Shown here: positions 9,090 through 52,649 of the stretch, in pieces | Layout of the letters: each line of letters begins with the position of its first letter | Position numbering within the stretch: the stretch's first letter is position 1 | Virus record (IMG/VR): IMGVR_UViG_3300029258_003649 | Reading direction: 5' to 3' (one strand) | Source: an uncultured virus (IMG/VR IMGVR_UViG_3300029258_003649) | Taxonomy: Duplodnaviria > Heunggongvirae > Uroviricota > Caudoviricetes | DNA: 64,000 nt | Program-made: the position numbers and the translations under genes | The notes under the pieces: model-generated | Told to the model about the DNA's origin: nothing | Seen by the model: the letters and a program-made list of their open reading frames with translations, nothing else | Databases searched by the model: none

Positions 9090-9150
9090 CTGCTATCATG
9101 GATAGTGCGCTGGACCGATGGTTGGACCAAGTCTTCTCAGGAGAACAATC

Positions 9151-10014: not shown

Positions 10015-10232
10015 TATCGCAGGATACCTGGGTAGCGATCGGGATATTTGCCTCAGTAGCGGCGCTGCTGAGCATCTATCTCGTGTCGCTCTGCCCGAAC
10101 AGCCGTACAAGGCCCTGGATTCGGGTCGTGGGATTTGTTACATTCACCTGTATCGCCGCGGCCATGGGGATTGCCCTTGGCGCACTAGTTCTCGCGATCG
10201 CAGGAGAGTGTAATGTCCAAATCCAACGGTAA
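10011..10232 (+). CDS. Two-TM membrane protein
   Basis: ATGA coupling; two hydrophobic helices. Confidence 0.6.
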   Translation: MISQDTWVAIGIFASVAALLSIYLVSLCPNSRTRPWIRVVGFVTFTCIAAAMGIALGALVLAIAGECNVQIQR

Positions 10233-10638: not shown

Positions 10639-10733
10639 TGGACGGGCTCGAACCCGAGGTCCGCTGGCCTATGGCCTTTCTGCTCATCGGCATCATGATT
10701 GCCATTCTCGCTATGGTCATTGTACTGACGTGA
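10638..10733 (+). CDS. Small single-TM protein (31 aa)
   Basis: Manual translation MDGLEPEVRWPMAFLLIGIMIAILAMVIVLT; TAATG overlap. Confidence 0.5.
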   Translation: MDGLEPEVRWPMAFLLIGIMIAILAMVIVLT

Positions 10734-10735
10734 CG

Positions 10736-10755
10736 AAACGCGGCATTATAAGGTG
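10736..10755 (+). promoter_or_regulatory. Promoter-like motif AAACRCGGCATTATAAGGTG, copy 1
   Basis: 19/20 identical to 17112-17131; both intergenic, ~30 nt upstream of a start codon. Confidence 0.7.
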
Positions 10756-10784
10756 AGTAGTGCCCTTATTTCCTGGAGGATGCC

Positions 10785-29503: not shown

Positions 29504-29734
29504 ATGGCCGACATTCTCGACCGTATCCTACATAAGCTGCCCGGTGACGATGACGAAGGAAAGTCGGAGACCAGGGTCATGACAGTACGCATGCCGGCGA
29601 CGTTGCACGCGGCCCTCAAGGACGAGGCCCGTGCGCGTAAGACCTCGGCCAACAAGCTCGCTGTTGCGAAGCTAAGTGTGAAGGCGGAAAGCCTCGACAA
29701 AGTCGCAGTGCTGGTACAAAGAGAGAATACGTGA
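29504..29734 (+). CDS. Ribbon-helix-helix DNA-binding protein (HicB C-terminal-like)
   Basis: MTVRMPATLHAALKDEARARKTSANKL; AGGAG SD. Confidence 0.8.
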   Translation: MADILDRILHKLPGDDDEGKSETRVMTVRMPATLHAALKDEARARKTSANKLAVAKLSVKAESLDKVAVLVQRENT

Positions 29735-31260
29735 TCTGGATCCCGATTATCGTCTCATTGCTTCTGGCAATGGTGACGGTCGGCATCTTTCGTAAGATGC
29801 TGGACGTAAAGGCCGCGCTGATCGACCGCGAGTTCGATCGGCATCAGCGGCTGATCGAATCAAACCGTCGGCTTTCTGAGCGCAACTACGACAACGGTAA
29901 CGCGTTTCAGGATACGCTCGACGAACACCGACGGTCTTTACACAATCTCGGTCATTCTCGGACCGAGATAGAGCAGGCGCAGCGTGCGTCTGCTGCTGCG
30001 ATTCGAAGTCTTGAGCAGCGGTCTAGCACCCACGAGGCGCGCATCAACCACTGCGATCACGCGATCATGGCGCTTCCGTCAGCGGGGCCACTCACCATCC
30101 GGTCGATGCACGATGCCATCGAGTCGCTGCGTGCGCGGATCGACACCGTGGCCGCGTCCCACAACGTCGACGGTACCGTCATTTCGGAATGGCGTGATGA
30201 GCTTAGGGCCGTGACCCAACGGAACCGTCTCGACATTGCGCGAATGGCCAACGCCACGTCCGTTGCGCTCGAGCTCCATGCGCGGGCCCTTGAGGCCCTT
30301 GAGGCCCTTGAGGATTACCTTGACGACAGCGACCCGGATGCCCCGCACAGGGAGTCGAAAGAGGAGCGGCAAAGTGAGCTGTTCTATCGGATCAACGCCA
30401 TTACCCGCGTTTTTACGGAGAACAGCCATGCGCCGGACGAAGGCAACCATCTCGCAGAGCTCTTGGAAGCGTACCTGCACGACTACCTGCCGTATCATCG
30501 GCGTACAGAGGTCGAGATGGATCTCATCGCTGCCACGGAGCTCCAGGAGTCCTTTGCAGAGGCGTGCCAGGGCTTGATGGTCTCGGGCCCGCCACTGCAG
30601 GGCCTGCCCGGTCCCGTCGATTTAGACGGTACGCTGCCCGACCCCGTCGATTTAGACGGTAATCCAGCCTTCGCGGACGGTCACGCCGCTGCCGCCAACG
30701 AGGAGTTTCGTCAACGCATAATGCGGGACCTGGATGAGCGTATCATTCGCGACATCAACGCTGTGAACGCGAACGGCGTGTTCTCCGGCGAGACCGGCGA
30801 GGAGAATGTCGGCGGCATCACCCGCGACACGGTCGCCGAGGCGCTGCAGTCGCTGCCTGCGCGTGACGTGTCTGAGATGCCGGTGGAGACGGTGTCGGAG
30901 ATCCTGCGTAACGGTTGGTACGACGGCCCGCGCGGCGTCGATCAGCTTAGGACGCCTGCGAATCCCTACGCCATCGACAGCAATATCGACTCGATCGAAC
31001 CGTGGTCGCACCATCTCGATGCCGGCGGCGGCGACTACGTCCTCGACAATGTCCGTACAGCGCGGATCGTAGCCGATCGGATCGTTCTCGACGCCAGACA
31101 GGTTATCATCCACAACGGTGTCCTCCGACGGACATTCTCGGACGACTTCGATGTCAGTACGCTCGAGGGCACGGACCTTGCTCGGGATGTCGGTGCGGAA
31201 GCTGCCACTGATGCCGAGCTAAATGGCCGTACCCCGCGCGGGGTAAGGTTCCGAGAATAA
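29731..31260 (+). CDS. Membrane-anchored, lysine-depleted coiled-coil protein
   Basis: N-terminal TM; 3 Lys in 509 aa; ends RTPRGVRFRE. Confidence 0.75.
   Translation: MIWIPIIVSLLLAMVTVGIFRKMLDVKAALIDREFDRHQRLIESNRRLSERNYDNGNAFQDTLDEHRRSLHNLGHSRTEIEQAQRASAAAIRSLEQRSSTHEARINHCDHAIMALPSAGPLTIRSMHDAIESLRARIDTVAASHNVDGTVISEWRDELRAVTQRNRLDIARMANATSVALELHARALEALEALEDYLDDSDPDAPHRESKEERQSELFYRINAITRVFTENSHAPDEGNHLAELLEAYLHDYLPYHRRTEVEMDLIAATELQESFAEACQGLMVSGPPLQGLPGPVDLDGTLPDPVDLDGNPAFADGHAAAANEEFRQRIMRDLDERIIRDINAVNANGVFSGETGEENVGGITRDTVAEALQSLPARDVSEMPVETVSEILRNGWYDGPRGVDQLRTPANPYAIDSNIDSIEPWSHHLDAGGGDYVLDNVRTARIVADRIVLDARQVIIHNGVLRRTFSDDFDVSTLEGTDLARDVGAEAATDAELNGRTPRGVRFRE
30604..30661 (+). repeat. 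Tandem duplication with 30-nt period (LPxPVDLDG x2)
   Basis: cccgtcgatttagacggta twice. Confidence 0.8.
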
Positions 31261-31286
31261 GCTATGATTGATAGCATCAGCACGCC

Positions 31287-31316
31287 TTCACATTCATGCT
31301 CGCAATCGGGTATAAC
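31287..31316 (+). promoter_or_regulatory. Sigma70-like promoter TTCACA-18-TATAAC
   Basis: Near-consensus hexamers directly upstream of the GGA-rich leader. Confidence 0.5.
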
Positions 31317-31321
31317 GAGGG

Positions 31322-31627
31322 CAGGGATAATGCAGGGATGCACTCGACGGCAAGGACGCCGAATCCCGAACTGTTTTCTAGGTGATCTAGTCAAGCCACT
31401 GACCGGTAATGGAAGGCATTCATCCGACCACGGACGCGAGGATTTGCCTGAGAAAAGTCGTGCCATAGAATTGCTGAGGTACGATTGGTGGAGCGGTAGA
31501 CGTGGCCTCGGTCTACTGCGAGGTGGAAGTCGTGAGACTGAAGCACGGAGCTTCCGGAGAGGGGAACCGGAGGTAGATTACCAAGGAGCAGAGCTGCATG
31601 TTAACTCAGGGCAAGGAGGCCACGATT
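31322..31627 (+). ncRNA. Structured GGA-rich RNA: CsrA-binding leader of the holin operon or CsrB/RsmZ-like sponge
   Basis: Seven CANGGA motifs, four in hairpin loops: TGC-AGGGAT-GCA, CGGC-AAGGAC-GCCG, GAAGC-ACGGA-GCTTC, GGC-AAGGAG-GCC (the SD). Confidence 0.6.
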
Positions 31628-31981
31628 ATGCCTTTTCGCGGTGCTGACCCGATTTGGATTTTCTTGTCGGCCTTTGCGATCTCATCTTTCGGCGGAATCG
31701 CTGCCAAGCTGCGCGGCCACGAAGAACTCACGTGGCGCGGCGTGATCGGTGCGTTTCTGTATTCTGGGATCATCGGGCTAATCGTCGCACTCGCCTGGTA
31801 CGAGTACTTTGACGGCAAGAACAACATACCGTTCCTCTTGGCCATTTCCGGCCTAGCGGGTATAGGTGGGGCAAACGTCCTCGACATTTTGAAGATGTTC
31901 ATCAAGGGCAAGGTGAACGTCTCAGTTGAGGGGGTGCAAGACGATGACCCCGGCCCTGGAGACGAACCAGATGACAACTAA
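31628..31981 (+). CDS. Putative holin (3 TM, LydA/lambda-like)
   Basis: FGGIA, SGIIGL, AISGLAGIGG hydrophobic segments; acidic C-terminal tail. Confidence 0.7.
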   Translation: MPFRGADPIWIFLSAFAISSFGGIAAKLRGHEELTWRGVIGAFLYSGIIGLIVALAWYEYFDGKNNIPFLLAISGLAGIGGANVLDILKMFIKGKVNVSVEGVQDDDPGPGDEPDDN

Positions 31982-32525
31982 GCTGCGAAAGCGTTTGTCG
32001 TGGATGGTATACGGCTTCATGCTTCTGTTTGTGGTCTGCGCTGGCGCAATGCTGCAGAACGCCCAGAGCCAGTACGAAGCGGCACATCACGATGCGCTCA
32101 TGTGGAAGGACGTGATCGACCACGTTCCGACCGGCCTCGTCGTCACCGACGACAAGGGATACATTATCGCCTGGAACAACGGCGCAAAAGACTTGCTCGG
32201 CTGGGAAGAGCAGGAGGTGGCAGACCACCACATCAGGTTTCTTATGACCGATGAGGACCTCAAGCACGCCCACGACCACATCTTCGACCGGGTCGACGAC
32301 TACGACGGCTGCCTCGACGAAGAGGGCCAGATCGTCCGATCGGTGTGCTGGGTGCCTACCAAGGATGGCGAGATGCGGGAGGTACGCGTCCGCGTACTCT
32401 GCGTGAAGAACAGCCATCACTGCTTTCTGGTACACATTGAACCCGAGGAGCGGCTCGCTCCGTTGCAGCGCCAGGAACGTCCAGACGAAAAGACGTTCAG
32501 GCTGCATCTGCAGCTCCGCAAATAG
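31971..32525 (+). CDS. Membrane-anchored PAS-domain protein
   Basis: TM, then IDHVPTGLVVTDDKGYIIAWNNGAKDLLGW...EV, TKDG. Confidence 0.82.
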   Translation: MTTKLRKRLSWMVYGFMLLFVVCAGAMLQNAQSQYEAAHHDALMWKDVIDHVPTGLVVTDDKGYIIAWNNGAKDLLGWEEQEVADHHIRFLMTDEDLKHAHDHIFDRVDDYDGCLDEEGQIVRSVCWVPTKDGEMREVRVRVLCVKNSHHCFLVHIEPEERLAPLQRQERPDEKTFRLHLQLRK

Positions 32526-32527
32526 CA

Positions 32528-34054
32528 ATGTCTATTCAGTCTGAGGCGCTTGACCTGTTCAAGAAGGCCGCTGCCGCGTCGTCGCCGCAGCTCAAGGGCA
32601 AGCTCTATCTATCCAGCACGGGCTGGTTGATGCTCCAGGTGCCGAACTCCCTCGGCCGGGGTATCTTTGATGCCATGAACGAACCTGGTATCGAATTGCC
32701 CGTAAGTGATACAACGGAGCAGTACAACGCTCACATCAGTGTGATGCGGCCAGAGGAGATCGCGGAGATCGGCGGGCCCAATCGCATAACGGAGCGCGGT
32801 CACGAGTTCAGCTACTCACTCGGCAAGATGAAGGACTTCAATCCGACCGGCTGGCCGGAGATGACCCGATGCTGGGTGGTAGAAGTGCGGAGCCCAGAGC
32901 TCGAGAAGCTTCGAAAGAGCTACGGGCTCAGCGCGATACCGAATGAGGGAAAGTACAAATTCCACATCACGGTAGCCGTACGTCGCGCGAAGGTCTTGGG
33001 TGATAACGAAGTGGCCAAGGCCAGCGAAAAGCACAACCCCGTCGAGAAGACCGACGGGATCACGCTGACCGACAAACCGGGTACCCATCTTCTCAAAGCT
33101 GGAGGGTCACATGAGCATGACCAAGGAGCAGATGGAACGGGAGGCGAGGCGCAGAGCTTTTGTGTACATCGAGCAGCGACTGGACTTCCGCCCAACCCTG
33201 CTGAAAAAGTGGGAGGATCAGGACTACGACCTGTTCCGGGCGACGCTGCGACACATCATGCCGCTGATCATGGAGGAACGGCGACTACAGGCGCTGCACA
33301 GGCAGGAGCAGGCGGAAGCGAAAAGCGAGCGGAAAGCCCTGATCTTTCGTCGGTGTTTCGACGTCATGTTGGTCCTTTCGCTAACAGCGATGTTGCTGGG
33401 GACCTGGTTAAATATGCCAAAGTGACACCAGCGCAGGCCATTGCCCGCGCCGCACGCCGCGCCGTCGCCCCCAAATCTGAAGCGCAGGCCGAAGCCGGTA
33501 ACTACCGGAAGGGCCACGCTTCGCTTCACGGGCTCCGCGTCGCGATCGAGAACCCGCGCGGCAGCACCCGGTCCGGCGTCGGTCCGACCGGGAAGAAGTG
33601 GGAAACCACGATGAGCCACCACTACGGTTACATCAACCGTACCGAGGACCTGGACGGCGATCACGTCGACATCTTCATCGGTCCGCATCCGGAGGCAGAG
33701 CTCGTCTACGTGGTGGATCAGGTCGATCCGTCCACCAAGAAGTTCGACGAGCACAAGTGCATGCTCGGATTCCTGACGCTCGACGAGGCCCGTAAGGGCT
33801 ACATGGACAACTACGAGAAGAACTGGAAGGGCCTTGGTGCGATCACGCCTGTCACGATGCAGCAGTTCCGCGAGTGGCTCAGCGAGGGAAGTCAACGCCG
33901 GCCGATCGAGTCGCAGACGTTCAAGATGAAGAAGAAGGCCGGAGACGACGCGTCTGTGCTGGTCCTGCAGAAGGACACGACGCGGTTCATTTTCCCGGAA
34001 GGTGGCACGGATGCGCAAACACGAGCTGACAATAGTGACGGGGGCGAGCAGTAA
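32528..34054 (+). CDS. Polyprotein-like: 2H phosphoesterase + phage inorganic-pyrophosphatase-like domain
   Basis: HISV/HITV dyad; QAEAGNYRKGH...IENPRGS.RSG...HYGYI...DGDHVD...FDEHKCMLGF; KKA/KAS/KYA/KKA at the domain edges. Confidence 0.8.
   Translation: MSIQSEALDLFKKAAAASSPQLKGKLYLSSTGWLMLQVPNSLGRGIFDAMNEPGIELPVSDTTEQYNAHISVMRPEEIAEIGGPNRITERGHEFSYSLGKMKDFNPTGWPEMTRCWVVEVRSPELEKLRKSYGLSAIPNEGKYKFHITVAVRRAKVLGDNEVAKASEKHNPVEKTDGITLTDKPGTHLLKAGGSHEHDQGADGTGGEAQSFCVHRAATGLPPNPAEKVGGSGLRPVPGDAATHHAADHGGTATTGAAQAGAGGSEKRAESPDLSSVFRRHVGPFANSDVAGDLVKYAKVTPAQAIARAARRAVAPKSEAQAEAGNYRKGHASLHGLRVAIENPRGSTRSGVGPTGKKWETTMSHHYGYINRTEDLDGDHVDIFIGPHPEAELVYVVDQVDPSTKKFDEHKCMLGFLTLDEARKGYMDNYEKNWKGLGAITPVTMQQFREWLSEGSQRRPIESQTFKMKKKAGDDASVLVLQKDTTRFIFPEGGTDAQTRADNSDGGEQ
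33111..33425 (+). CDS. Nested +1-frame gene, small protein with C-terminal TM
   Basis: GGAGG SD; G/C-ending codons in this frame; lies in the linker of 32528..34054. Confidence 0.6.
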   Translation: MSMTKEQMEREARRRAFVYIEQRLDFRPTLLKKWEDQDYDLFRATLRHIMPLIMEERRLQALHRQEQAEAKSERKALIFRRCFDVMLVLSLTAMLLGTWLNMPK

Positions 34055-34945: not shown

Positions 34946-37900
34946 ATGGAAAAGTCGGCCGGGTTCATGGACATGCTGAAGGCTCTGATCGAGCCACTTG
35001 TACGCAAGTGGGTCGAGAGCAAGGGGCTTGTGCTTGGCCCGTTCCGTCCACAGGGCAGCCTGATGGACCACCTCGAGTCTCAGCAGTTCGAGGACATGAA
35101 GACCAACCTGATGCGCCAGGCCGCGTCTTCCGATCCCGCCCCGCGCAAAATTCTTACCGGACTGGCCACCGCACTCGGCATCGACCCGAAGAACATCGGC
35201 GGTCAGGTCGAAGACCTCACCGAAGGCTATGCCGAGGTCGCGCCGTACTTCCAACGCTGGTCGCCGGAGTGGTGGGACACGCTTCATGGCAGCTCCGGCT
35301 CTACCGCTTCGCTCGCGTCCGCCATCGCCGACGCGCACCGCTACCAGGATATGGACGCTCCGACTGCCGTCGGCATGGCGGAAACGATCTTCGACGAGTT
35401 CTACAGCGACCCGATGAAACACCGCGGCTTCTCCGCGCGAGATCTCGGAAAGATCTACCGGGAGGGTGCGAAGCGAGGTTACTTCCATGTGGGGATGGAT
35501 CCCGACCAGATGGTCGAGGAAATGACGCCTGTCGTTGGCGTCGCCTCGGCTGTCCGGGATTCCATGCCGTCCGACTACGATCGGAGCGACATCGCCGGCA
35601 TCTTCGAAGGCATCGACAAGACGCTCCCGGCGTACGGCAACCAGGGCTGGGGCGAGATGGAGAAGCACATCCGCACCACGAAGCACCTGTCGCCGGAGCG
35701 CGGCGGGCTGATGGCCGCTGCCTTGAGGGACACCCCGCTGACGGGGAGTCGGACCACGCTGCCCGAACTGGAGGCCCAGCACGCCCGTCTGACGCAGCAA
35801 GCCGCAGGCAGCCCGGTAGCCGCCCAGCTCGCTGCAACGTCCAGGATGGTGCAGGACGGGCTCATATCGGAGAATTCTGAGGCTGCCCGGATGCTGGAGG
35901 AAGATCCGGGCGCTCTGGCAGCCATGAACCCCCAGGAATGGGTGGCAGAGGTGGGTCGGGCCGGCGTTGATCAACAAGTCGCCATGACCATGATGAACCA
36001 GCCAAATGAGCAGCTGATCACGCCGTCGCTGGCACAGGCGATCCGGCAGCAGCAGTACAGCCTGGACATCCAGCCACAGATCGACCAGATGCACCGGGCG
36101 TTCCCGCAGAAGGGAAAGACCTGGGATTCGATCCGCAGCGGTGAGCAAACTCGCATCGCAAAAGGGATGGGCTACAACAACTGGGCCCATCTCCAGCAGC
36201 TTCACGGAAAACCGCTCCAGAACGTACAAAACGTACGAAACCGCGCCCAGCGTCTGGGTCAACAGGAGCAAATGACCTCCCATCTGGCACAGAGTGGGCC
36301 CGTAGAGCGCGTAATTGACGATATTAAGCGCGGGCCGACCATGGGGTCCCTGACGACGTCCTTCTTCAACATCCAACCGATGCAGAAGATGTCGGCCCAC
36401 CAGACCACGATCGCGGTCGACCTGGACGGCACGTTGGCCAAGCAGATGAAGCCGTACGACAACAACAAGGTCGGCGATCCTCGTCCCGGCGCCAAGGAAG
36501 CAATGGAGTTGCTGAAGAAGAAGGGCTGTAAGATCATCATCAACACAGTCCGTGGTAACGACAAGCTCGTCAGCTCGTGGCTGAAGGAGCACGAGATTCC
36601 CTATGACCATATCAACGAGAACCCGGACCAACCGCCGGGAGCCTCCGATAAGCCCCTGGCAGATCTGTACATCGACGACCGTGGCGTCGATGCTCGTCCG
36701 GCCTGGCGAAAGGTCATAGAGAAGGTCGTACCAAGGATCGATCGGATGCGGAAGGAGGGCGCTGAGGAAGTATTGCCGGAAGACATTATGCAGCAGCTGC
36801 TCGATCGGTCCGAGCTCATGGGCTCGCGTGGCCGCGCGTTGAAATATGGCCGGCCGGAGCCAGAAGGCCGTGACTACGATCGGTTCATCTTCACCGATGA
36901 TCCCAACGATCAGCAAGCGATCATGGAGCAGATGCGTTCGTTGGCGCCATTGGGCTATCAGATGCGTGAGCGCCCAGGCGGCATGATGACTGCAGCCAGC
37001 CCGACACAGGACTTCAGCGTCTATCCGACGGCCAAGCGCGACCAGATCCACAAGGCGTGGGAGCTGATCGAAGGCGGGATGACCAAGGACGAGGCGTGGG
37101 ACCAGATCAATAAGCAGGCCGATTATCGCCCCCTGGGAATTCCGGACAAAAAGAACTTCGGTGATCCGTCCAAGCTGGCGGACATCGTCGACATGTTCGT
37201 ACAGAGGCATGATGCCCGCCGCGCAGGCGAGCATTACGACTACCGCGTCGGTTCGCCGGAGACCGGACTGCTTTCATGGGCCACGAAACCCACTGAGCTG
37301 CCGGAGCCCGGACAGAAGCGGTTTATGAGGCAGCAGCCTGTGCATTCGCACTGGTATGGAGACTTCCAGGGTACGATCGGCGGCACCGGTTACGGTGCGG
37401 GCACCGTGCGCCAGGAACAGAAACAGCGTGTGATGATTACCAAGGCGTCGCCGACCAAGCTTGAGTACACGGTCGCGTCGTCTGGTGTGCCTGAACGGTT
37501 CATTCTGCTGAAGCCCGAGAAGTGGGGAGATCGTGACTGGCTACTTATCAATGCAACGCCAAAGGAGGTGATCCCATACGAGAAAGTGCGTTACAAGAAG
37601 GTACCTGCCGAGAACGTCGAACCGCTTCTCGGGCAGATGCAGGAAGGGAGTTCTGTTCAGGCGAAGATCGATGGTGCGTCGTCACTCATCAAACTGATGC
37701 GAAACGGAGCCGAAGTTGTAAGTTACCGCACATCCAAGAAAACCGGACGCCCGATTGTCCATACGGAGCGATTCTTCGGCGGTAGGCCAGAGATGGAGAT
37801 TCCGAAGGAGCTGGTCGGGACAGTATTGAAAGGCGAGATCTATGGAACCCGACCGGATCGAAGCACCCAGCTGCCCTCCGCCCAGCCAGGACGAGCCGTC

Positions 37901-38581
37901 GCTGAAGCAGCTAAGGGAGGACCCGACCTGGAAGGCGGTGGTGGATTGGACGATGGGGATGGTGATCGAGGAGTTATCCCGCCGCAAGAACTCGGAGGAA
38001 TCCTCAACGCCTCAATCGAAAAGTCCCTCGGAACCCAGCGCGACCGCGGCATCCAGCTGAAGAACATGCTGTATGACATCCAGCAGCGCGGCAAGCAGCC
38101 CGTCGGCGACGTTCCGTACGCTGAGCGTCGCAAGATGATCGAGGAGGTGCTACAATATCTTCCTCAGGACAAGTTCCATGTCGCCGAGGAGGAGACCACG
38201 CCCGAAGGCGCGCAGAATCTCTGGCGACAGATCGTTGAGGGCAAACATCCGCTGACCCGCGAAGGCATCGTGATCCACCCGCCGACCGGGAAGCCGATGA
38301 AAGCCAAGCAGTTGGAGGAGTCAGATGTCCACATTCGAAGTATCTTCCCAGGACAGGGAAAGTACCACAATATTGGTGCCGGAGGTTTCGACTATTCCTT
38401 GTCGCCTGGTGGACCAACAGTGGGCCGAGTCGGTACCGGGCTATCAGACGATATGCGGCGAGATATGCATGCAAACCCGGACGCATACACTGGAAGAGTC
38501 GCTCGTATACGCTCGCAGGAGCAGCTTCCCTCTGGAGCTTGGCGTGCACCAGCCATGATCGGACTGCACGAAGACTACTAG
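34946..38581 (+). CDS. Polyprotein: unknown helical domain + HAD phosphatase + Pol-beta-type nucleotidyltransferase + LigD 3'-phosphoesterase + ATP-dependent DNA ligase
   Basis: IAVDLDGTLA...YIDDRG; MGSR...RDYD; VQRHDARRAGEHYDYR...LSWA...YGAGTV; AKIDG, GEIY, YDI, EGIVI, GRVGTG. Confidence 0.85.
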   Translation: MEKSAGFMDMLKALIEPLVRKWVESKGLVLGPFRPQGSLMDHLESQQFEDMKTNLMRQAASSDPAPRKILTGLATALGIDPKNIGGQVEDLTEGYAEVAPYFQRWSPEWWDTLHGSSGSTASLASAIADAHRYQDMDAPTAVGMAETIFDEFYSDPMKHRGFSARDLGKIYREGAKRGYFHVGMDPDQMVEEMTPVVGVASAVRDSMPSDYDRSDIAGIFEGIDKTLPAYGNQGWGEMEKHIRTTKHLSPERGGLMAAALRDTPLTGSRTTLPELEAQHARLTQQAAGSPVAAQLAATSRMVQDGLISENSEAARMLEEDPGALAAMNPQEWVAEVGRAGVDQQVAMTMMNQPNEQLITPSLAQAIRQQQYSLDIQPQIDQMHRAFPQKGKTWDSIRSGEQTRIAKGMGYNNWAHLQQLHGKPLQNVQNVRNRAQRLGQQEQMTSHLAQSGPVERVIDDIKRGPTMGSLTTSFFNIQPMQKMSAHQTTIAVDLDGTLAKQMKPYDNNKVGDPRPGAKEAMELLKKKGCKIIINTVRGNDKLVSSWLKEHEIPYDHINENPDQPPGASDKPLADLYIDDRGVDARPAWRKVIEKVVPRIDRMRKEGAEEVLPEDIMQQLLDRSELMGSRGRALKYGRPEPEGRDYDRFIFTDDPNDQQAIMEQMRSLAPLGYQMRERPGGMMTAASPTQDFSVYPTAKRDQIHKAWELIEGGMTKDEAWDQINKQADYRPLGIPDKKNFGDPSKLADIVDMFVQRHDARRAGEHYDYRVGSPETGLLSWATKPTELPEPGQKRFMRQQPVHSHWYGDFQGTIGGTGYGAGTVRQEQKQRVMITKASPTKLEYTVASSGVPERFILLKPEKWGDRDWLLINATPKEVIPYEKVRYKKVPAENVEPLLGQMQEGSSVQAKIDGASSLIKLMRNGAEVVSYRTSKKTGRPIVHTERFFGGRPEMEIPKELVGTVLKGEIYGTRPDRSTQLPSAQPGRAVAEAAKGGPDLEGGGGLDDGDGDRGVIPPQELGGILNASIEKSLGTQRDRGIQLKNMLYDIQQRGKQPVGDVPYAERRKMIEEVLQYLPQDKFHVAEEETTPEGAQNLWRQIVEGKHPLTREGIVIHPPTGKPMKAKQLEESDVHIRSIFPGQGKYHNIGAGGFDYSLSPGGPTVGRVGTGLSDDMRRDMHANPDAYTGRVARIRSQEQLPSGAWRAPAMIGLHEDY
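37842..38060 (+). CDS. Nested +1-frame ORF in an insertion of the ligase domain
   Basis: Codon bias switches to this frame over ~37842-38000 while the host frame reads as a G/D-rich loop. Confidence 0.4.
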   Translation: MEPDRIEAPSCPPPSQDEPSLKQLREDPTWKAVVDWTMGMVIEELSRRKNSEESSTPQSKSPSEPSATAASS

Positions 38582-43596: not shown

Positions 43597-44449
43597 TGAC
43601 ACCACCACCCCGGAACCGGATGACGATCACATCGACATCCCGGAACCGGAAGAAACCGTCGAGGCCCAAGGGCCCACCAAGGCGGTGCCGCAAATGTCGG
43701 CTGAGGAACTACGCGAGAAGTTCCTCAATGACCATGACGTACCGCACACCGACATCTCCCAGCCGCCCGCAGGGCCGGTGAAGGAGAAGCCGGCGTATGA
43801 GCGCGGTGCGAAGCTCCCCGAAATGCCTTCGGAGATCGCGGAGCAGATGCAACCGGACGGCACCTATCCCGTCAACATCTTGGAGGAGTGGGCGCTGTTG
43901 AACAAGGTCGACGATGTTCTGGAACGTGCCAAGGCTCAGCTTGGCGATCGCGGCTATGCCGTGCTGCGCGAGCGCGTCGTGGAAGCGATTCCGCACGTGG
44001 TCGAACTGGTCATGCCCGATCGGAAGCACGAGTGCGAGGAAGACTGCTCCGAAAAGACCGTCTGCGACGGAGACTGCGATTGCGACTGCGACGACACCAT
44101 CGTCGAGAAGGTCGTCGACCGCTGGCCGCGGCTCAAGAAGTACGCCGCGGTTATCGTCGCTGTCATTGGCGGGCTGATCGGCGGTTCTGCCGGCACCGTT
44201 GCCGTGCAGGAAGTCACGACTCCGCCCGCTATCGAGGATCCGGTCGTCGGCCCCGAGCTGCCTGACCGGGACGCCGCACTTGCCAGCCTCTACTTCGAAC
44301 TGTGCAAGCACGGCCATCCGCTGACCACGGACGAGGACGGCAACGTGTCGTTCACGATCCACAAGATGAGCGTCGAGGGCAACCGCGGCTACGACGCTAC
44401 GTTTCGTGCGACAAAGAACGGTCACCTGAACGTGACCTTGAAGCGATAG
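43589..44449 (+). CDS. Membrane protein with acidic and Cys-rich segments
   Basis: CEEDC...CDGDCDCDC; TM YAAVIVAVIGGLIGG. Confidence 0.7.
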   Translation: MADDTTTPEPDDDHIDIPEPEETVEAQGPTKAVPQMSAEELREKFLNDHDVPHTDISQPPAGPVKEKPAYERGAKLPEMPSEIAEQMQPDGTYPVNILEEWALLNKVDDVLERAKAQLGDRGYAVLRERVVEAIPHVVELVMPDRKHECEEDCSEKTVCDGDCDCDCDDTIVEKVVDRWPRLKKYAAVIVAVIGGLIGGSAGTVAVQEVTTPPAIEDPVVGPELPDRDAALASLYFELCKHGHPLTTDEDGNVSFTIHKMSVEGNRGYDATFRATKNGHLNVTLKR

Positions 44450-44456
44450 ACCTCTC

Positions 44457-44494
44457 GGCCACTGCGCCCGCCTTCGGGCGGGCGTTGGCTTTTT
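44457..44494 (+). terminator. Rho-independent terminator with cUUCGg tetraloop
   Basis: cgcccgcc-ttcg-ggcgggcg then ttggcttttt. Confidence 0.75.
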
Positions 44495-44506
44495 CAGGAG
44501 GGACCG

Positions 44507-45010
44507 ATGGAAACGCTACGCAACGGACCCGAGCCGATCCGGGAGCCGGACTACAACTACTGGTGTTGGGTCCCCGATCGCTGCCTCTGCTTCCCCGACG
44601 GCATTCAGCCGGAGCTCGACGTCTACGATGGCGACACGCTCAAGCTCGTCATCGATCTGGGCCTCAACCAGTTCGTCAGCCCGATGTACTATCGGCTGTA
44701 CGGCATCCAGGCCCCCGAGATCCGACCACGGGCAACGCGGCAAGCTGGCATTGCTGCCAGGGACCATCTGATCTGGCTGATCAAGGAAACAGCGTTCTCC
44801 AAACAGAGCAACGGGTTCCCGACTCCTGGGTACCGGCTGCTCGTCCGGACGTACAAAAAACTACGTCCTAAGCGGGATTATCGACCCAAAGCGGTCAAAG
44901 GCAAGTACGGACGCTACCTGGTCGAGCTGTACGGCCAGCGAGGGCCCAACCTCATCAATCTCAATCAGAAGATGATCGAGGAAGGGAAAGCTGTTGCATA
45001 TTCCCCCTGA
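44507..45010 (+). CDS. Thermonuclease (SNase-like)
   Basis: YDGDT...IDLG, RLYGIQAPE, GKYGRYL, NLN..MIEEG.A. Confidence 0.9.
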   Translation: METLRNGPEPIREPDYNYWCWVPDRCLCFPDGIQPELDVYDGDTLKLVIDLGLNQFVSPMYYRLYGIQAPEIRPRATRQAGIAARDHLIWLIKETAFSKQSNGFPTPGYRLLVRTYKKLRPKRDYRPKAVKGKYGRYLVELYGQRGPNLINLNQKMIEEGKAVAYSP

Positions 45011-45061
45011 CAAACCCCAGGCGGATCAGCTATCATAGGATGACATACGGAGAACCCTGCA

Positions 45062-45589
45062 ATGCCAGTACAAGAAGGCCCCCACTACCGTTTCCAGAAG
45101 TACGAGTTCTGGGCGGAACGTGGCATGATCTCACTCATCGACACGGAAGCGGCCGCGGACAGCGCCCACGCTAACGATCCCGACCAGTTCCACTGGCGGA
45201 TTCCTCCGGGCCAGTTCATGAAGCGGGCGGTCAGTGCACTCATGCACGATCCCGAGAAGTATCCCAGCCAGCGCCGCGAGCTCAAGAAGATGCTCGAAGA
45301 CGCCGCGGCTGCGTGCAAGCTGGCCAAGGCGCAGGGCGACCCGACTGATCCGAGCGTCATCGAGGATGTGGTCAAGCACCAGCGGAAGCGCTCGATCGTG
45401 CTTCCCGGAGAGCTGCCGCCCATGCCCGGTATGCCGGAGCAGAAACACAAGATCCAGAATCATGGACGATCCGCTGGCCAGATCCTGGAGAAGGGCGTCG
45501 ACGTGGTGCCCGACTTCACCATCAGCCCGCAGGAAATGCTCACACCCAAACGTGCGGAGAAGCTCAGAGCTAAACCTACAGGGAGGTAG
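45062..45589 (+). CDS. Hypothetical protein
   Basis: Native codon usage; upstream CTGACA-18-TATCAT. Confidence 0.75.
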   Translation: MPVQEGPHYRFQKYEFWAERGMISLIDTEAAADSAHANDPDQFHWRIPPGQFMKRAVSALMHDPEKYPSQRRELKKMLEDAAAACKLAKAQGDPTDPSVIEDVVKHQRKRSIVLPGELPPMPGMPEQKHKIQNHGRSAGQILEKGVDVVPDFTISPQEMLTPKRAEKLRAKPTGR

Positions 45590-45591
45590 GA

Positions 45592-45924
45592 ATGAACTCC
45601 AAAGAAGCTTTCAAGATCGGGTTCCTTCACAAGTGCGCTGAGGATGGTCTCACCCCGGACGAGACCCTCGAACGCGTTCGCCACGCCACGCTGCTGGTCA
45701 AATCCGCTGGTTGGGGCATGCCTACCATGGCCGCTCTGACGCTCCTTGGTGCCACGCCGTTCCTGGTCGGTACGACCGGCGGCTACGCGCTGCAGCAGAT
45801 GCGTGAGAACACCGGGCTCGACGCCAAGGATATGAAGAAAAGGGAGGTGATTGCGGAGTATCGACGCGCCGTTGACAGGATGAGACGCTTGCAACAGCGG
45901 GTCGCGCCTGACGCAGTCTCGTAG
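45592..45924 (+). CDS. Small K-x-A motif protein with a hydrophobic segment
   Basis: AFKIGFLHKCAE, LVKSAG; GGAGG SD. Confidence 0.7.
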   Translation: MNSKEAFKIGFLHKCAEDGLTPDETLERVRHATLLVKSAGWGMPTMAALTLLGATPFLVGTTGGYALQQMRENTGLDAKDMKKREVIAEYRRAVDRMRRLQQRVAPDAVS

Positions 45925-45927
45925 TAG

Positions 45928-46326
45928 ATGCAACATAGTAAGTACCATGGTGAACAGCATGCACGGTACGGCGGAACACTACATTGGCCAGGCGCCAATG
46001 GTGTGCCGCTGCTTGGAGATGCTGCACCATCGCTGAAGCAGCACGAGATCGAACGGCTGACCGTCCGCGGCACGGCGTATGAGCGGCTGTTCGACATGTC
46101 GCAGGAAGAGGACCGCGAGTACTACAACTGGGTGCGAGACCGCATCCGCAACGGCCAGTTTGTGAAAGACCACGAGACTCGCAAATGGCCTGACGATTGG
46201 GAGTATCCAAAAATCTGGCTGGAGTGGACCCAACTGTACGTACAGGCCCCTCCACAAGTCCAAGGCATAGGGAGCAACGGGCATGGAAGCCACAGACAAT
46301 TCACGTTACGACGCCCTGATGGATAA
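45928..46326 (+). CDS. Hypothetical protein
   Basis: Operon position; globular composition. Confidence 0.65.
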   Translation: MQHSKYHGEQHARYGGTLHWPGANGVPLLGDAAPSLKQHEIERLTVRGTAYERLFDMSQEEDREYYNWVRDRIRNGQFVKDHETRKWPDDWEYPKIWLEWTQLYVQAPPQVQGIGSNGHGSHRQFTLRRPDG

Positions 46327-47185
46327 AGAAGCTGGGTTCGATGAGCTGAACCAAACGGCCAGAGAGCAGGCCAACCAGCGCATCTGGCAGATGATCCTGG
46401 GCGGAGCAGGCCTGGGACTCGGATTGCGGGGCGCGTTCGGTCTGGGCGAGCTGATGATGCCGCGTGGTCGCGGCTATCAGGCCAGTCCGACTTCGCAGAC
46501 CGTCGACCTGATGCTGCCGCAGCCGCAGGACGAGGAAGAGAAGTACGGGATGGACAAAGAGGCGATCGAGTGGAAGGGCCCTGGCGACCTCTTCGACCCG
46601 AAGTTCTACGCCCAGTTCACCCAGCCGCTCTTCGACAAAGACTGGGGACCCGTTGGCAACTACATCAAGGGCGACCAGTCAACCCACTACGGCGGCGTGC
46701 CCGCTACCTGGGCTGTCGGTGTTCCTGCCGGCGCGCTCGCACTGGCTGGCGGCTGGAAGGGCATGGACGCGCTCATGAAACGTCGGCGCGAAGCTGCTCT
46801 GGAAGCCGAGGAAGAGTCGTACAAGAACGAGTATCGCGAGATCCTCGAGAAGCTACAGAAGCGTGGCTCCGCCAACGACTTCCTCGAAGAGGAGCTTGAC
46901 GAGCTGGCTGACGCATACGCCGAGGCGCAGACGCACGAGAAGCAAGCGGCGTTTGGCTGGGACGAGCTGAAGCAGAAGGCCAGCAACATCGGCGGCTTCG
47001 GCACCGGCGCCTACATGGCTTACGCCACGCTGGCGGCGCTGCTCAGCGGCAAGCTCAGCTACGACTACTTCAAACGCCGCGGCCGTCGAAACGTCGCGCA
47101 AGAGGCAATGAAGCGCCGGAGTAAGGAACGCACTGGCGGCGTCGCTCCGATTCAGTTCCGTCCAGGTGCACAGGACCTTGTGTAA
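46283..47185 (+). CDS. Glycine-zipper virion-associated protein
   Basis: Three hydrophobic segments, each preceded by KEA/KEA/KQA; no Cys; TAATG-coupled to the RNAP gene. Confidence 0.7.
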   Translation: MEATDNSRYDALMDKEAGFDELNQTAREQANQRIWQMILGGAGLGLGLRGAFGLGELMMPRGRGYQASPTSQTVDLMLPQPQDEEEKYGMDKEAIEWKGPGDLFDPKFYAQFTQPLFDKDWGPVGNYIKGDQSTHYGGVPATWAVGVPAGALALAGGWKGMDALMKRRREAALEAEEESYKNEYREILEKLQKRGSANDFLEEELDELADAYAEAQTHEKQAAFGWDELKQKASNIGGFGTGAYMAYATLAALLSGKLSYDYFKRRGRRNVAQEAMKRRSKERTGGVAPIQFRPGAQDLV

Positions 47186-51558: not shown

Positions 51559-51579
51559 CAACACTAGCAAAAAATTCGC

Positions 51580-51601
51580 GCGACGACTGCGTCGTCGTTT
51601 T
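51580..51601 (+). terminator. Possible terminator after the RNAP large gene
   Basis: cgacgac-tgc-gtcgtcg-tttt. Confidence 0.45.
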
Positions 51602-51672
51602 GGATTGTAGAATCAACGCAACCCCTGTAAGCTACTAGTAGTGTCACATGAACAACGAACGGAGTCGCACTA

Positions 51673-52359
51673 ATGTCCCACGAAATGAACCCGATGCTTT
51701 TCGATCTTGCCGAATGGAGGTTGGCCGGTGAGAACGAGAAAAAGGCTTTCGTACCAGGTGATCCGGCGGCGGGCGGAATGCCGCCGGGAGCGATGCCGCC
51801 CGGAGGAGCTCCGCCGATGGATCCGATGGCAGGAGGCGGAGCACCGCCGATGGACCCGGCGATGGCAGGAGCCGCCCCGCCGATGGACCCGGCTGCAATG
51901 GCGGGAGCACCGCCAGCCGCTGCCCCTGCGCCTGCAGCTGGTGGAGCCCCAGGAGCCGGTGGAAAGCCCAAGATCGATCCTACCTTCATCTACATGGAGC
52001 TCTCCCGCGTTCGGAAGCTCTTGACCCACATGATGAAGCACACGGGCATCGACATGCCTCCCGACATTCTGGACGACGGTGCTGTGGCGATGGTCGCTCA
52101 AGGCCAGATGCCGCAGAGCGCGCCGCTCGGAGCCGGCGCCGAAGGTGCCCCGCCCGAGGGTGGCGGCGGCGGACCGGCGTTGCCGGGTATCGGCGGGAAC
52201 GCGCCCGTCAGCCCGATTGAAGCCCCGTCCGGGCCTGAGAAAGCAGGAGCCGATGCGTTGTCGATGTTCCGCGGTCCAGTCGACGGGGAGCGAGAGGACG
52301 CGTCGCAGTTGCGGCTCGATGCGATCTCCGCCATGTCCCGAAGCCTGCACCGTAGGTAA
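51673..52359 (+). CDS. Pro/Gly/Met-rich K-x-A protein
   Basis: EKKAFVPG; PPMDP repeats; no Cys. Confidence 0.75.
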   Translation: MSHEMNPMLFDLAEWRLAGENEKKAFVPGDPAAGGMPPGAMPPGGAPPMDPMAGGGAPPMDPAMAGAAPPMDPAAMAGAPPAAAPAPAAGGAPGAGGKPKIDPTFIYMELSRVRKLLTHMMKHTGIDMPPDILDDGAVAMVAQGQMPQSAPLGAGAEGAPPEGGGGGPALPGIGGNAPVSPIEAPSGPEKAGADALSMFRGPVDGEREDASQLRLDAISAMSRSLHRR

Positions 52360-52361
52360 TC

Positions 52362-52649
52362 ATGATTGTTGAACTCCACAACAAGTTGGGCAATCCGCAG
52401 CGCATCGAAGCGACTCGCGTTGTACTGCGGTGCCCAATCAACGGCGTCATTGCTGTGGCCCTGGAACCGACTCCAGGGCACCAGTACATCATCGATCGCG
52501 GCGACGGCGACGAGGTCATGAACAAGATGCTCTCTCAGTTGGGCATCAACGAGACCGTCATCAGCGATCATATCGACAAGGATTCCTTCGCGGCGCCGCC
52601 TAAGGGCAGCCGCCTCTGGAAGCCTGGCGAGGATCCTCCGCATGCTTAA
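52362..52649 (+). CDS. Hypothetical protein
   Basis: Between 51673 and beta'-C, overlapping its start. Confidence 0.7.
   Translation: MIVELHNKLGNPQRIEATRVVLRCPINGVIAVALEPTPGHQYIIDRGDGDEVMNKMLSQLGINETVISDHIDKDSFAAPPKGSRLWKPGEDPPHA

What the first reader, a model, noticed from the sequence alone, without database searches (positions are those of the whole stretch)
31287..31630. About 300-nt leader packed with CsrA-type GGA hairpins ahead of the holin
Seen: after a TTCACA-18-TATAAC promoter, CANGGA occurs seven times (31322, 31333, 31351, 31429, 31544, 31582, 31612). Four are loops of short stems (31331-31342, 31348-31361, 31540-31554, 31610-31621), and the last loop is the holin SD. Known: CsrA/RsmA binds ANGGA loops and blocks translation, and CsrB/RsmZ RNAs carry arrays of them. 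Inference: lysis timing tied to a Csr switch, or a phage-encoded CsrA sponge.
Basis: partly seen in the sequence, partly recalled or inferred. Interest (0 to 1): 0.78.

Follow-up and report, generated by a model that had tools for sequence, protein, structure and literature searches.

The report
Phage leader RNA with CsrA-type loops
The GGA-rich stretch before the phage's holin-like gene is a conserved, intricately folded RNA not described before, and it probably docks the CsrA regulator that these large phages carry themselves, pointing to a virus-borne copy of a bacterial translation-control circuit.

Summary
The seven CANGGA motifs are real and locally exceptional: 7 in 300 nt, the window maximum, reached by 0 of 200 shuffles. 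The 367-nt gap is non-coding. Its core (31381-31582) is one copy of an undescribed pseudoknotted RNA of about 220 nt. It has seven helices, and 53 of 63 pairs show compensatory changes in 28 relatives. It occurs once per genome in a family of ~200-kb phages with a fused RNA polymerase, always before a small membrane-protein gene, here holin-like.

Its most conserved unpaired bases are G-rich: a C-[A-N-G-G-A-U]-G hexaloop (ANGGA in 53 of 57), GGUUAGG, GGnGG and AGGGGAU. The phages encode their own CsrA (18 of 19 near-complete genomes, including all 16 with the RNA). Only in CsrA-bearing genomes do ribosome-binding sites sit in exactly that A-N-G-G-A-N hexaloop more often than the motif elsewhere (odds ratios 2.6-6.7). 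The holin-like gene's site is one of them.

Best reading (0.6): a CsrA-docking leader or decoy in a virus-borne Csr circuit. Binding is untested. No Rfam family matches.

The parts
31264..31647 (+). 127-codon ORF spanning the gap: not a gene
   Evidence: GC3 is 0.48 against 0.62-0.89 in 20 reference genes of the window. The codon-usage score is -0.37 against +0.08 to +0.45. No Pfam or PHROG hit. The frame is not kept in G004.
31287..31316 (+). Promoter-like TTCACA, 18-nt spacer, TATAAC (function not shown)
   Evidence: Read. Not listed by the consensus scan. G004 has TTCCCA-18-TACACT at the aligned place, and G006 keeps the TATAAC box. Distant relatives have a TAAAAT/TAAACT-type box shortly 5' of P0 (seen by eye).
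31320..31361 (+). Lineage-specific 5' extension with three CANGGA and two CsrA-type hexaloop hairpins (31331-31342, 31348-31361)
   Evidence: Predicted P(unpaired) of the GGA is 0.81-1.0 in the two hairpins. G004 keeps the first hairpin as UGC-AUGGAC-GCA and loses the GGA of the second. The extension is absent in G006 and in the distant relatives.
31381..31582 (+). Core structured RNA, closed by helix P0 (31381-31389 with 31574-31582)
   Evidence: Model R2 hit at 31371-31599, 74.9 bits, E 1.6e-22, the only hit in the window. All consensus helices are canonical in this sequence. The constrained fold is -71.7 against a free MFE of -74.4 kcal/mol. Covariation.
31390..31403 (+). P1 hairpin; its loop 31395-31399 (GCCAC) forms the pseudoknot with 31502-31506 (GUGGC)
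   Evidence: Pseudoknot helix: 5 of 5 pairs change on both sides and 99.3% of cells are paired in 28 sequences. The two strands are swapped between the window clade and the distant clade.
31404..31448 (+). J1/2 (family GGUUAGG; here GGUAAUGGAAGG) and P2 with apical C-[ACGGAC]-G at 31429-31436
   Evidence: GGUUAGG in 54 of 57 distinct sequences. ANGGA in the P2 apical loop in 53 of 57, with N = G 36, U 14, C 2, A 1. The closing C-G pair is present in 54 of 57. In the window itself the local fold of P2 is ambiguous.
31458..31484 (+). P3 hairpin (31458-31464 with 31478-31484; 31466-31468 with 31474-31476)
   Evidence: helices 6 and 7. A sigma-70-like match at 31444-31471 lies inside it and is probably incidental.
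31485..31519 (+). J3/4 (GGUGGA; family GGnGG) and P4 (31493-31501 with 31511-31519)
   Evidence: GGA in J3/4 in 52 of 57. In P4, 7 of 7 pairs are compensatory.
31528..31573 (+). P5 (31528-31531 with 31536-31539) and P6 (31551-31557 with 31567-31573, loop AGAGGGGAA at 31558-31566)
   Evidence: The P6 loop holds GGGGA in 54 of 55 sequences with letters there. P6 stems covary in 6 of 7 pairs. P(unpaired) of the loop GGA is 0.96-0.99.
31583..31600 (+). AAGGAG followed 9 nt later by an in-frame upstream AUG (31598): a possible second start
   Evidence: Not seen in G006. Not followed further.
31610..31621 (+). Shine-Dalgarno hairpin GGC-AAGGAG-GCC, 8 nt before the ATG at 31628
   Evidence: The same type occurs before the downstream gene in G039 (GAC-AAGGAG-GUC) and G013 (UGAC-ACGGAG-GUCA). 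It is a member of the class enriched in CsrA-bearing phages.
31628..31981 (+). Holin-like membrane protein (117 aa)
   Evidence: phrog_6384 'holin' E 3.3e-8 and phrog_785 E 1.5e-7. Pfam Phage_holin_3_3 scores 23.0 bits, below the cut-off of 28.4. Homologues follow the RNA in 35 of 50 related records.
31926..32525 (+). Membrane-anchored PAS-domain protein, overlapping the end of the holin-like gene
   Evidence: Pfam PAS E 6.2e-8. The same gene pair occurs in G006 and G010.

Best explanation
Window 31381-31582 is a single-copy member of a new family of ~220-nt structured RNAs. It has a closing helix P0, hairpins P1-P6 and a P1-loop/P4-loop pseudoknot. It lies in the 5' leader of a small membrane-protein gene, here a holin-like gene followed by a PAS protein, in a family of ~200-kb phages that carry a fused multisubunit RNA polymerase.

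Shown: the fold, its conservation, its position, and the fact that its most conserved unpaired bases are G-rich motifs. The most telling is a hexaloop A-N-G-G-A-U closed by C-G in which N takes all four bases.

Inferred: the RNA is a docking platform for a CsrA-family protein, most likely the CsrA these phages encode. In the window's lineage the platform has grown. It has two more hexaloop hairpins at 31331-31361 and the Shine-Dalgarno sequence of the holin-like gene sits in the same kind of hexaloop (31610-31621). A CsrA dimer anchored upstream could therefore occlude the ribosome-binding site and hold back the membrane protein until CsrA is titrated or turned over. The same RNA, if abundant, would also titrate CsrA away from the many other phage mRNAs whose ribosome-binding sites sit in such hexaloops. 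My split within the CsrA reading is about two to one for control of the downstream gene in cis over a mainly decoy role.
For: Structure:
- On a structure-blind MAFFT alignment of 28 relatives, 63 pairs show 93.6% of cells paired against 36.7-45.0% when partners are slid. 53 pairs have changes on both sides. The pseudoknot scores 5 of 5.
- On the model-fitted alignment of 88 hits (57 distinct), 95.7% are paired against 34.1-48.7%, and 48 of 53 pairs are compensatory.
- There is one copy per genome: 14 of 15 near-complete records and 2 of 4 more.

CsrA link:
- PF02599 scores above cut-off in 14 of 15 and in 4 of 4 near-complete records. All 16 RNA-bearing near-complete records have it. G007, Salmonella phage Arash and Vibrio phage D69 lack both.
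- In G063 and G072 csrA lies 1.2-1.5 kb from the RNA, and in G064 it lies in the same gene cluster.
- The phage CsrA aligns 1-48 with RsmE 2jpp (E 4.7e-12).
- The P2 loop holds ANGGA in 53 of 57 with a free N. E. coli CsrB repeats read CAGGAUG-like.

Regulon signature:
- A-N-G-G-A-N hexaloops closed by at least 3 pairs, at Shine-Dalgarno position against elsewhere: G002 13/93 vs 42/1032 (p 2.9e-4); G004 21/121 vs 105/1416 (p 4.7e-4); G011 26/97 vs 39/752 (p 3.7e-10); G039 20/106 vs 69/1178 (p 1.3e-5); G064 29/113 vs 95/1128 (p 3.2e-7); window 6/33 vs 31/433 (p 0.037).
- CsrA-less relatives: G007 6/104 vs 77/1325 (p 0.57); Arash 6/86 vs 76/1434 (p 0.32); D69 7/86 vs 75/1301 (p 0.24).
- Shifted loop registers show no enrichment, apart from G011 at p 0.015 for one register.
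Against: - No binding, expression or RNA-end data exist.
- A seven-helix pseudoknotted fold is far more than known CsrA partners need. It looks more like a riboswitch aptamer or a ribonucleoprotein scaffold.
- Outside the window's lineage the RNA carries a median of only 6 GGA per 239 nt. That is near the window's background of 20.5 per kb and well below CsrB's 59.6 per kb.
- The invariant J1/2 and J3/4 motifs conserve GG doublets (GGUUAGG, GGnGG) rather than GGA as such.
- By eye, a GGA at the downstream gene's Shine-Dalgarno site occurs in only 6 of 28 leaders plus 4 of 5. Occlusion of the ribosome-binding site therefore cannot be the family-wide mechanism.
- In the window, P2 may fold so that its GGA is paired.
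- G064 has CsrA and the hairpin signature, but no RNA was found.
- Co-occurrence of RNA and CsrA rests on essentially one clade against three outgroups, so it amounts to about one independent contrast.
- The window and G002 data sets overlap, because G002 covers the window from about 37980 onward.
- Gene starts were called by a crude automatic rule.
Confidence: 0.6

Rival explanations
1. Riboswitch or other ligand- or signal-sensing leader. The pseudoknotted multi-helix core is an aptamer for a metabolite or ion. Ligand binding changes translation of the downstream membrane protein. The G-rich motifs build the binding core; for example, the four GG doublets of GGUUAGG and GGnGG could form a two-tier G-quadruplex.
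For: Complex conserved fold with a closing helix and a pseudoknot, with conserved bases concentrated in junctions and loops. It sits in a 5' leader on the same strand as the gene in every locus examined. The invariants in J1/2 and J3/4 are GG doublets rather than GGA.
Against: No Rfam family matches, even at E up to 10. No terminator-like site was found. I saw no conserved alternative helix that would serve as an expression platform, though I looked only by eye. The downstream genes vary (holin-like, or transmembrane plus coiled-coil proteins) and point to no metabolite. The free N inside an otherwise invariant A-N-G-G-A apical hexaloop fits a protein site better than a ligand pocket.
Confidence: 0.15
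2. Structured RNA with another role. It could be a scaffold for a different phage protein, a stabilising 5' domain, or a ribosome-recruiting standby element whose four Shine-Dalgarno-like motifs boost translation of a gene that often has a weak ribosome-binding site.
For: GGAGG, AGGAG and AGGGGA are Shine-Dalgarno-like. Many distant relatives have weak sites before the downstream gene (by eye). The closing helix P0 starts close to the promoter-like box, as in stable RNAs.
Against: P2 loops such as CAUGGAU and CACGGAC are poor Shine-Dalgarno mimics yet keep A-N-G-G-A. This reading does not explain why the RNA is found only in genomes that have csrA.
Confidence: 0.2
3. Nothing special: a chance cluster of GGA in an ordinary spacer, or the 31264-31647 ORF is the real conserved element.
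For: The motif CANGGA was picked after the fact. An open frame of 127 codons spans the gap.
Against: 0 of 200 shuffles reach 7. The ORF lacks a coding signature, has no family hit and is broken in G004. The compensatory changes preserve RNA pairs, not codons.
Confidence: 0.01

Closest known systems
CsrB/CsrC and RsmX/Y/Z decoy RNAs of Gammaproteobacteria
   Same: They carry GGA motifs in hairpin loops and linkers. The hexaloop A-N-G-G-A-N closed by C-G matches the repeat seen in E. coli CsrB. They occur in a genome that encodes a CsrA-family protein. The window's leader reaches 45 GGA per kb against 60 per kb in CsrB.
   Different: No Rfam model matches. This RNA has a compact pseudoknotted seven-helix fold with many conserved non-GGA positions. 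Only 3-4 G-rich motifs are conserved. It has no terminator of its own and lies inside an mRNA leader. It is encoded by a virus.
CsrA/RsmE-repressed mRNA leaders (glgC and hcnA type; recalled from the literature, not read here)
   Same: Upstream GGA hairpins plus a GGA hairpin that holds the Shine-Dalgarno sequence, as at 31331-31361 and 31610-31621.
   Different: A 200-nt structured domain sits between the upstream sites and the Shine-Dalgarno site. The GGA at the Shine-Dalgarno site is missing in most relatives (by eye).
Phage-encoded RsmA/CsrA homologues (Campa et al. 2021, PMC8450108; passages read)
   Same: CsrA genes in phage genomes, including IMG/VR contigs, proposed there to manipulate the host.
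   Different: In the passages I read, that paper describes the proteins and mentions neither a partner RNA nor phage-internal targets. Here the phage genomes carry a conserved RNA and a genome-wide hairpin signature at their own ribosome-binding sites.
Riboswitches in phage lysis or structural modules (recalled, not checked here)
   Same: A conserved complex fold in a 5' leader of a phage gene.
   Different: No known class matches, no ligand is indicated and no expression platform was found.

Membership tests
CsrB/RsmY/RsmZ-type decoy RNA families (Rfam) | Match to the family covariance model | tested here: not met
   No match at gathering score in the window or in 13 related loci. No Csr/Rsm family among matches up to E 10.
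CsrB/RsmY/RsmZ-type decoy RNA families (Rfam) | Many GGA motifs exposed in loops and linkers | tested here: inconclusive
   Window leader: 14 GGA in 310 nt, with 3 closed hexaloops. Family median is 6 per 239 nt, of which 3-4 are conserved.
CsrB/RsmY/RsmZ-type decoy RNA families (Rfam) | Stand-alone small RNA with its own terminator | tested here: not met
   No terminator-like site on the + strand between 30800 and 32200. RNA ends could not be mapped.
CsrB/RsmY/RsmZ-type decoy RNA families (Rfam) | Binds and sequesters CsrA | not testable with these tools
   Needs EMSA, ITC or CLIP.
CsrA-repressed mRNA leader | GGA overlapping the Shine-Dalgarno sequence, presented in a hairpin loop | tested here: met
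   GGC-AAGGAG-GCC at 31610-31621, 8 nt before the ATG. By eye, a GGA at the Shine-Dalgarno site occurs in 6 of 28 plus 4 of 5 relatives.
CsrA-repressed mRNA leader | A CsrA-family protein in the same system | tested here: met
   PF02599 scores 78 bits in G002, the same phage, and is found in 18 of 19 near-complete relatives. There is none inside the window itself. The host is unknown.
CsrA-repressed mRNA leader | CsrA-dependent translation | not testable with these tools
   Needs reporter and toeprint assays.
Riboswitch | Conserved fold with covariation in a 5' leader | tested here: met
   position.
Riboswitch | Expression platform (terminator or helix that sequesters the Shine-Dalgarno site) | tested here: inconclusive
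   No terminator-like site. Alternative helices were looked for only by eye.
Riboswitch | Specific ligand | not testable with these tools
   No ligand is indicated by the gene context.
CsrA protein family (Pfam PF02599), for the phage protein | Score above the curated cut-off and a full-length alignment to solved CsrA/RsmE | tested here: met
   78 bits against 27. Residues 1-48 align to 2jpp chain A residues 1-48, E 4.7e-12, with the REE motif near residue 44 and the N-terminal MLxLxRK kept.
Phage holin (downstream gene) | Match to a holin family above threshold | tested here: inconclusive
   PHROG holin families at E 3.3e-8 and 1.5e-7. Pfam LydA-type holin scores 23.0 bits, below 28.4. No endolysin gene adjacent.

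The most novel reading that the evidence does not exclude
These ~200-kb phages carry a complete Csr circuit of their own. It has a CsrA protein, dozens of phage mRNAs whose ribosome-binding sites sit in A-N-G-G-A-N hexaloops, and one compact pseudoknotted RNA that acts as the dedicated high-affinity partner of the viral CsrA, either as antagonist or as timer. The RNA's fold pre-positions the GGA sites. Together they would schedule phage protein synthesis, including the membrane or lysis protein encoded right behind the RNA, independently of the host's own Csr system.
Probability: 0.3. Interest if true: 0.9.

Novelty: new variant of a known kind. Interest (0 to 1): 0.8.

Why it matters
Phage-borne CsrA genes are on record, but in the passages I read (PMC8450108) they are discussed as tools against the host. 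This locus suggests the viral protein has viral RNA partners: a conserved structured RNA and a genome-wide set of hairpin ribosome-binding sites. If so, large phages run their own post-transcriptional timing circuit.

That idea is directly testable with one small protein and one 300-nt transcript. The RNA is also a new, well-supported structured RNA family, with 88 hits, a pseudoknot and no Rfam match. It would be a good target for structure determination, and a candidate for how CsrA sites can be pre-organised by tertiary folding.

Tried and rejected
- DNA search of the 'phages' collection with window 30000-33000: no match. A tblastn with the holin-like protein also found nothing.
- Single-protein scans of viral contigs with the 509-aa, holin-like and PAS proteins found no confirmed relative. 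Relatives were reached only through the RNA polymerase.
- A BLAST of the leader against 40 related records found only G004.
- The pattern GTGGTGGYCGRYYGGTTAGG gave 28 bacterial contigs. None was confirmed by R2 (best 16.3 bits). About 17 chance hits are expected by my own estimate, so I treat them as chance.
- The metagenome pattern scan gave 11 loci. Three were real: two identical to the window and one like G004. It therefore added no new close relatives.
- RNA sequencing runs: none was listed.
- Records behind the metagenome loci are not held.
- A resemblance of GCCACUG in P1 to the cobalamin riboswitch core was considered and dropped. The distant clade lacks it and no Rfam cobalamin model matched.
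- The sigma-70-like site at 31444-31471 lies inside conserved helix P3 and is not kept in relatives.
- The ORF 31264-31647 was rejected as a gene.
- The 31540-31554 hairpin occurs only in the window and overlaps P6.
Full report
**Observation.** The + strand of the window holds 126 of them, about 2 per kb. Seven in 300 nt is the window's maximum, and none of 200 Markov shuffles reached it. The four short hairpins are correct as read from the sequence, and the last one presents AAGGAG 8 nt before the ATG at 31628. Under a stricter definition (a hexaloop A-N-G-G-A-N closed by at least three pairs), 25 such hairpins exist on the whole + strand and 3 of them lie in this leader. The caveat is that the motif was chosen after looking.

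**The gap is non-coding.** The gap 31261-31627 is 367 nt, one of the longest in a densely packed, all-plus-strand window. The 127-codon ORF across it has GC3 of 0.48 against 0.62-0.89 in 20 reference genes. Its codon score is -0.37 against +0.08 to +0.45. It has no Pfam or PHROG hit and is not kept in the nearest relative. ANGGA density is 21.8 per kb here against 0-11 per kb in the other long gaps. One 90-nt gap, with two motifs, reaches 22 per kb.

**What the genome is.** The window encodes a fused beta/beta-prime RNA polymerase (47185-51558, with a further piece at 52642-54528), thymidylate kinase, a 2H-phosphoesterase/InPase protein and a large kinase-phosphoesterase-ligase protein. Two IMG/VR fragments are the same phage. 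G001 is identical from window 35880 onward. G002 is 100% identical over window 44001-63018. CheckV's completeness estimates put the genome near 210 kb. The polymerase retrieved 77 related loci from IMG/VR, mostly on contigs of up to 235 kb. The nearest named phages, Salmonella phage Arash and Vibrio phage D69, are only about 32% identical in the polymerase.

**A conserved element.**
- DNA search of the closest relatives hit only a 115-nt piece inside the gap (G004, 74% identity), although the flanking genes differ there.
- G006 and G010 have the same blocks before a holin homologue.
- A holin profile found homologues in 35 of 50 records. The 600 nt upstream of 30 of them align into one long conserved element.
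- Model R2, built from 28 of these sequences, finds exactly one hit in the window (31371-31599, 74.9 bits, E 1.6e-22).
- It finds one hit per genome in 14 of 15 near-complete records, including records without the holin, and in 17 of 25 further records.
- It finds 88 hits in the loci collected by a sequence pattern and by synteny.
- No Rfam family matches the window or the relatives.
- The 28 bacterial contigs that share a 20-nt pattern were not confirmed.

**The fold.** RNAalifold on the MAFFT alignment predicted 53 pairs, 45 of them with compensatory changes. I added an inner P4 helix and a pseudoknot between the P1 loop and the P4 loop. The pseudoknot was noticed because the two 5-nt strands are swapped between clades: GUGGC/GCCAC in the distant clade, GCCAC/GUGGC in the window, CCUGC/GCAGG in G006. 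On the same structure-blind alignment the 63 pairs give 93.6% paired cells against 36.7-45.0% for slid partners. 53 pairs change on both sides, and 0 of 500 shuffles reach any of the five measures. The pseudoknot has 5 of 5 compensatory pairs. The model-fitted alignment of 57 distinct sequences agrees: 95.7% against 34.1-48.7%, and 48 of 53 pairs. In the window every consensus helix is canonical, and the constrained fold costs only 2.7 kcal/mol over the free minimum. Coordinates are in the parts list. Helix P0 (31381-31389 with 31574-31582) closes the domain.

**What is conserved outside the helices**:
- GGUUAGG after P1, in 54 of 57 distinct sequences.
- The P2 apical hexaloop A-N-G-G-A-U closed by C-G. 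ANGGA is present in 53 of 57, with N = G 36, U 14, C 2, A 1.
- GGnGG between P3 and P4, with GGA in 52 of 57.
- AGGGGAU in the P6 loop, with GGGGA in 54 of 55.

An invariant A, GGA and closing C-G around a free N is the pattern I recall for CsrA/RsmE sites. E. coli CsrB, fetched here, repeats UCAGGAUG/CCAGGAUG-like words and holds 22 GGA in 369 nt.

The motifs at 31322, 31333 and 31351 lie in a 5' extension shared only with G004. There, 31333 is kept as a hairpin whose only loop changes are at the two N positions. The motifs at 31544 and 31582 are private to the window, and 31612 is the Shine-Dalgarno site.

**CsrA.** The family encodes CsrA.
- G002, the same phage as the window, has a 57-aa protein at 78 bits. 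It aligns residue 1-48 to RsmE.
- PF02599 passes its cut-off in 14 of 15 and in 4 of 4 near-complete records.
- Of the 19 near-complete records, 16 have the RNA by whole-record search, and all 16 have CsrA.
- G007 lacks both. G063 has a weak syntenic RNA hit (20.4 bits with filters off). G064 has none.
- Arash and D69 lack both.
- In G063, G064 and G072 csrA is inserted, on the opposite strand, between the 2H and InPase genes. Those two genes are fused in the window. In G063 and G072 this puts csrA 1.2-1.5 kb from the RNA.
- The window itself holds no csrA.

**A genome-wide signature.** I asked whether A-N-G-G-A-N motifs that sit 3-11 nt before the start of an ORF of at least 70 codons are closed into a hexaloop more often than the same motif elsewhere.

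| Genome | CsrA | At SD position | Elsewhere | Odds ratio | p |
|---|---|---|---|---|---|
| window | + | 6/33 | 31/433 | 2.9 | 0.037 |
| G002 | + | 13/93 | 42/1032 | 3.8 | 2.9e-4 |
| G004 | + | 21/121 | 105/1416 | 2.6 | 4.7e-4 |
| G011 | + | 26/97 | 39/752 | 6.7 | 3.7e-10 |
| G039 | + | 20/106 | 69/1178 | 3.7 | 1.3e-5 |
| G064 | + | 29/113 | 95/1128 | 3.8 | 3.2e-7 |
| G007 | - | 6/104 | 77/1325 | 1.0 | 0.57 |
| Arash | - | 6/86 | 76/1434 | 1.3 | 0.32 |
| D69 | - | 7/86 | 75/1301 | 1.4 | 0.24 |

Shifting the loop register by one base either way removes the effect, with one exception (G011, p 0.015). With four-pair stems the trend holds in G004, G011, G039 and G064. It is not significant in the window or G002, and Arash reaches p 0.027.

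Limits of this test: the start-calling rule is crude, the window and G002 overlap, G039, G064 and D69 were only partly fetched (200 kb, 200 kb and 180 kb), and the contrast is one clade against three outgroups. A hand-listed set of 62 starts in the window gave 5 of 14 against 20 of 305 (p 0.0024). The holin-like gene's site is one of these hairpins. Others precede the genes at 45592, 51673, 54619 and 63530.

**Reading.** Shown: a new, single-copy, pseudoknotted RNA domain in the leader of a small membrane-protein gene. Its conserved unpaired bases include a canonical CsrA-type hexaloop, and it occurs in phages that encode CsrA and whose ribosome-binding sites carry a CsrA-type hairpin signature.

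Inferred (0.6): the RNA docks CsrA. In the window's lineage it has three more closed A-N-G-G-A-N hexaloops, one of them holding the Shine-Dalgarno sequence. The likeliest effect is therefore CsrA-dependent control of the holin-like gene, with titration of CsrA as a second or alternative effect.

Not shown: transcription, RNA ends, binding, direction of regulation, any role in lysis timing, and the host.

**Rivals.** A riboswitch-like sensor (0.15) and another ribonucleoprotein or translation-enhancing role (0.2) are kept alive by four points:
- The fold is more complex than CsrA partners need.
- GGA density is low outside this lineage (median 6 per 239 nt).
- J1/2 and J3/4 conserve GG doublets rather than GGA.
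- Most relatives lack a GGA at the downstream gene's Shine-Dalgarno site (by eye).

Chance, or a hidden gene, is excluded by covariation.

**Literature.** Four full-text searches were run.
- Phage-encoded RsmA/CsrA homologues are on record in Campa et al. 2021, PMC8450108 (passages read). That paper cites a survey of CsrA on mobile elements, PMC7366521, which I saw only in a search listing.
- Passages of PMC8545117 and of the preprint 10.64898/2026.09.22.753630 did not bear on this RNA.
- None of the listed titles, abstract starts or passages describes a partner RNA or phage-internal targets of a phage CsrA, or a structured RNA before a holin gene in such phages. These searches cover only open-access papers and preprints.
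- What I say about SELEX and RsmE-hcnA recognition, and about riboswitches in phage lysis modules, is recalled and was not read here.

Noticed in passing
window 47185-51558 and 52642-54528: A multisubunit RNA polymerase with beta and the N-terminal half of beta-prime fused in one 1457-aa protein, followed by a separate 628-aa beta-prime C-terminal piece. It defines a large uncultured phage family (96 of 97 candidate stretches confirmed; 77 loci). The nearest named members, Salmonella phage Arash and Vibrio phage D69, are only ~32% identical.
   Followed up: partly
window 45580, 51659, 54605, 63517 (and genome-wide in G002, G004, G011, G039, G064): Ribosome-binding sites are presented in A-N-G-G-A-N hexaloop hairpins. 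They are enriched only in CsrA-encoding phages and only in that loop register, which is a candidate phage Csr regulon.
   Followed up: yes
L299 3590-3784, L300 3957-4160, L298 about 2468-2623: In G063, G064 and G072 the csrA gene sits on the opposite strand between separate 2H-phosphoesterase and InPase genes. In the window these two are fused into one 508-aa protein (32528-34054).
   Followed up: partly
window 31583-31630: Two in-frame starts (31598 and 31628), each preceded by AAGGAG at 8-9 nt. This resembles the dual-start arrangement of some holins (recalled). It was not seen in G006.
   Followed up: no
window 31926-32525: A membrane-anchored PAS-domain protein directly follows, and overlaps, the holin-like gene. 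The same pair occurs in G006 and G010. It might be a sensor or an antiholin-like partner.
   Followed up: no
window 34946-38581: A 1211-aa protein combining a kinase/isomerase-like region, a LigD-type 3'-phosphoesterase and an ATP-dependent ligase domain. It looks like a nucleic-acid repair enzyme.
   Followed up: no
window 29504-29734: A 76-aa protein next to thymidylate kinase is well conserved in G004 and G006. It looks to me like a ribbon-helix-helix regulator, but it has no family hit.
   Followed up: no
window 31230-31245: A perfect 16-nt palindrome, TACCCCGCGCGGGGTA, lies inside the last codons of the upstream gene, just before the leader. The only database echo is a weak sub-threshold CRISPR-repeat match (E 6.8).
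   Followed up: no
loci L110, L111, L114, L116: In distant relatives a tRNA gene lies a few hundred bases beyond the holin homologue. The window has no tRNA.
   Followed up: no
upstream of the RNA in distant relatives (alignment): A conserved CTCTTTGACAA box is followed by a variable hairpin and a TGnTAAAAT-like box. The spacing is too long for a standard -35/-10 pair. It may be a regulated or phage-specific promoter.
   Followed up: no
window 8525-9117, 10015-10212, 10639-10784: Several apparent gaps hold short ORFs that look like small hydrophobic peptides.
   Followed up: no
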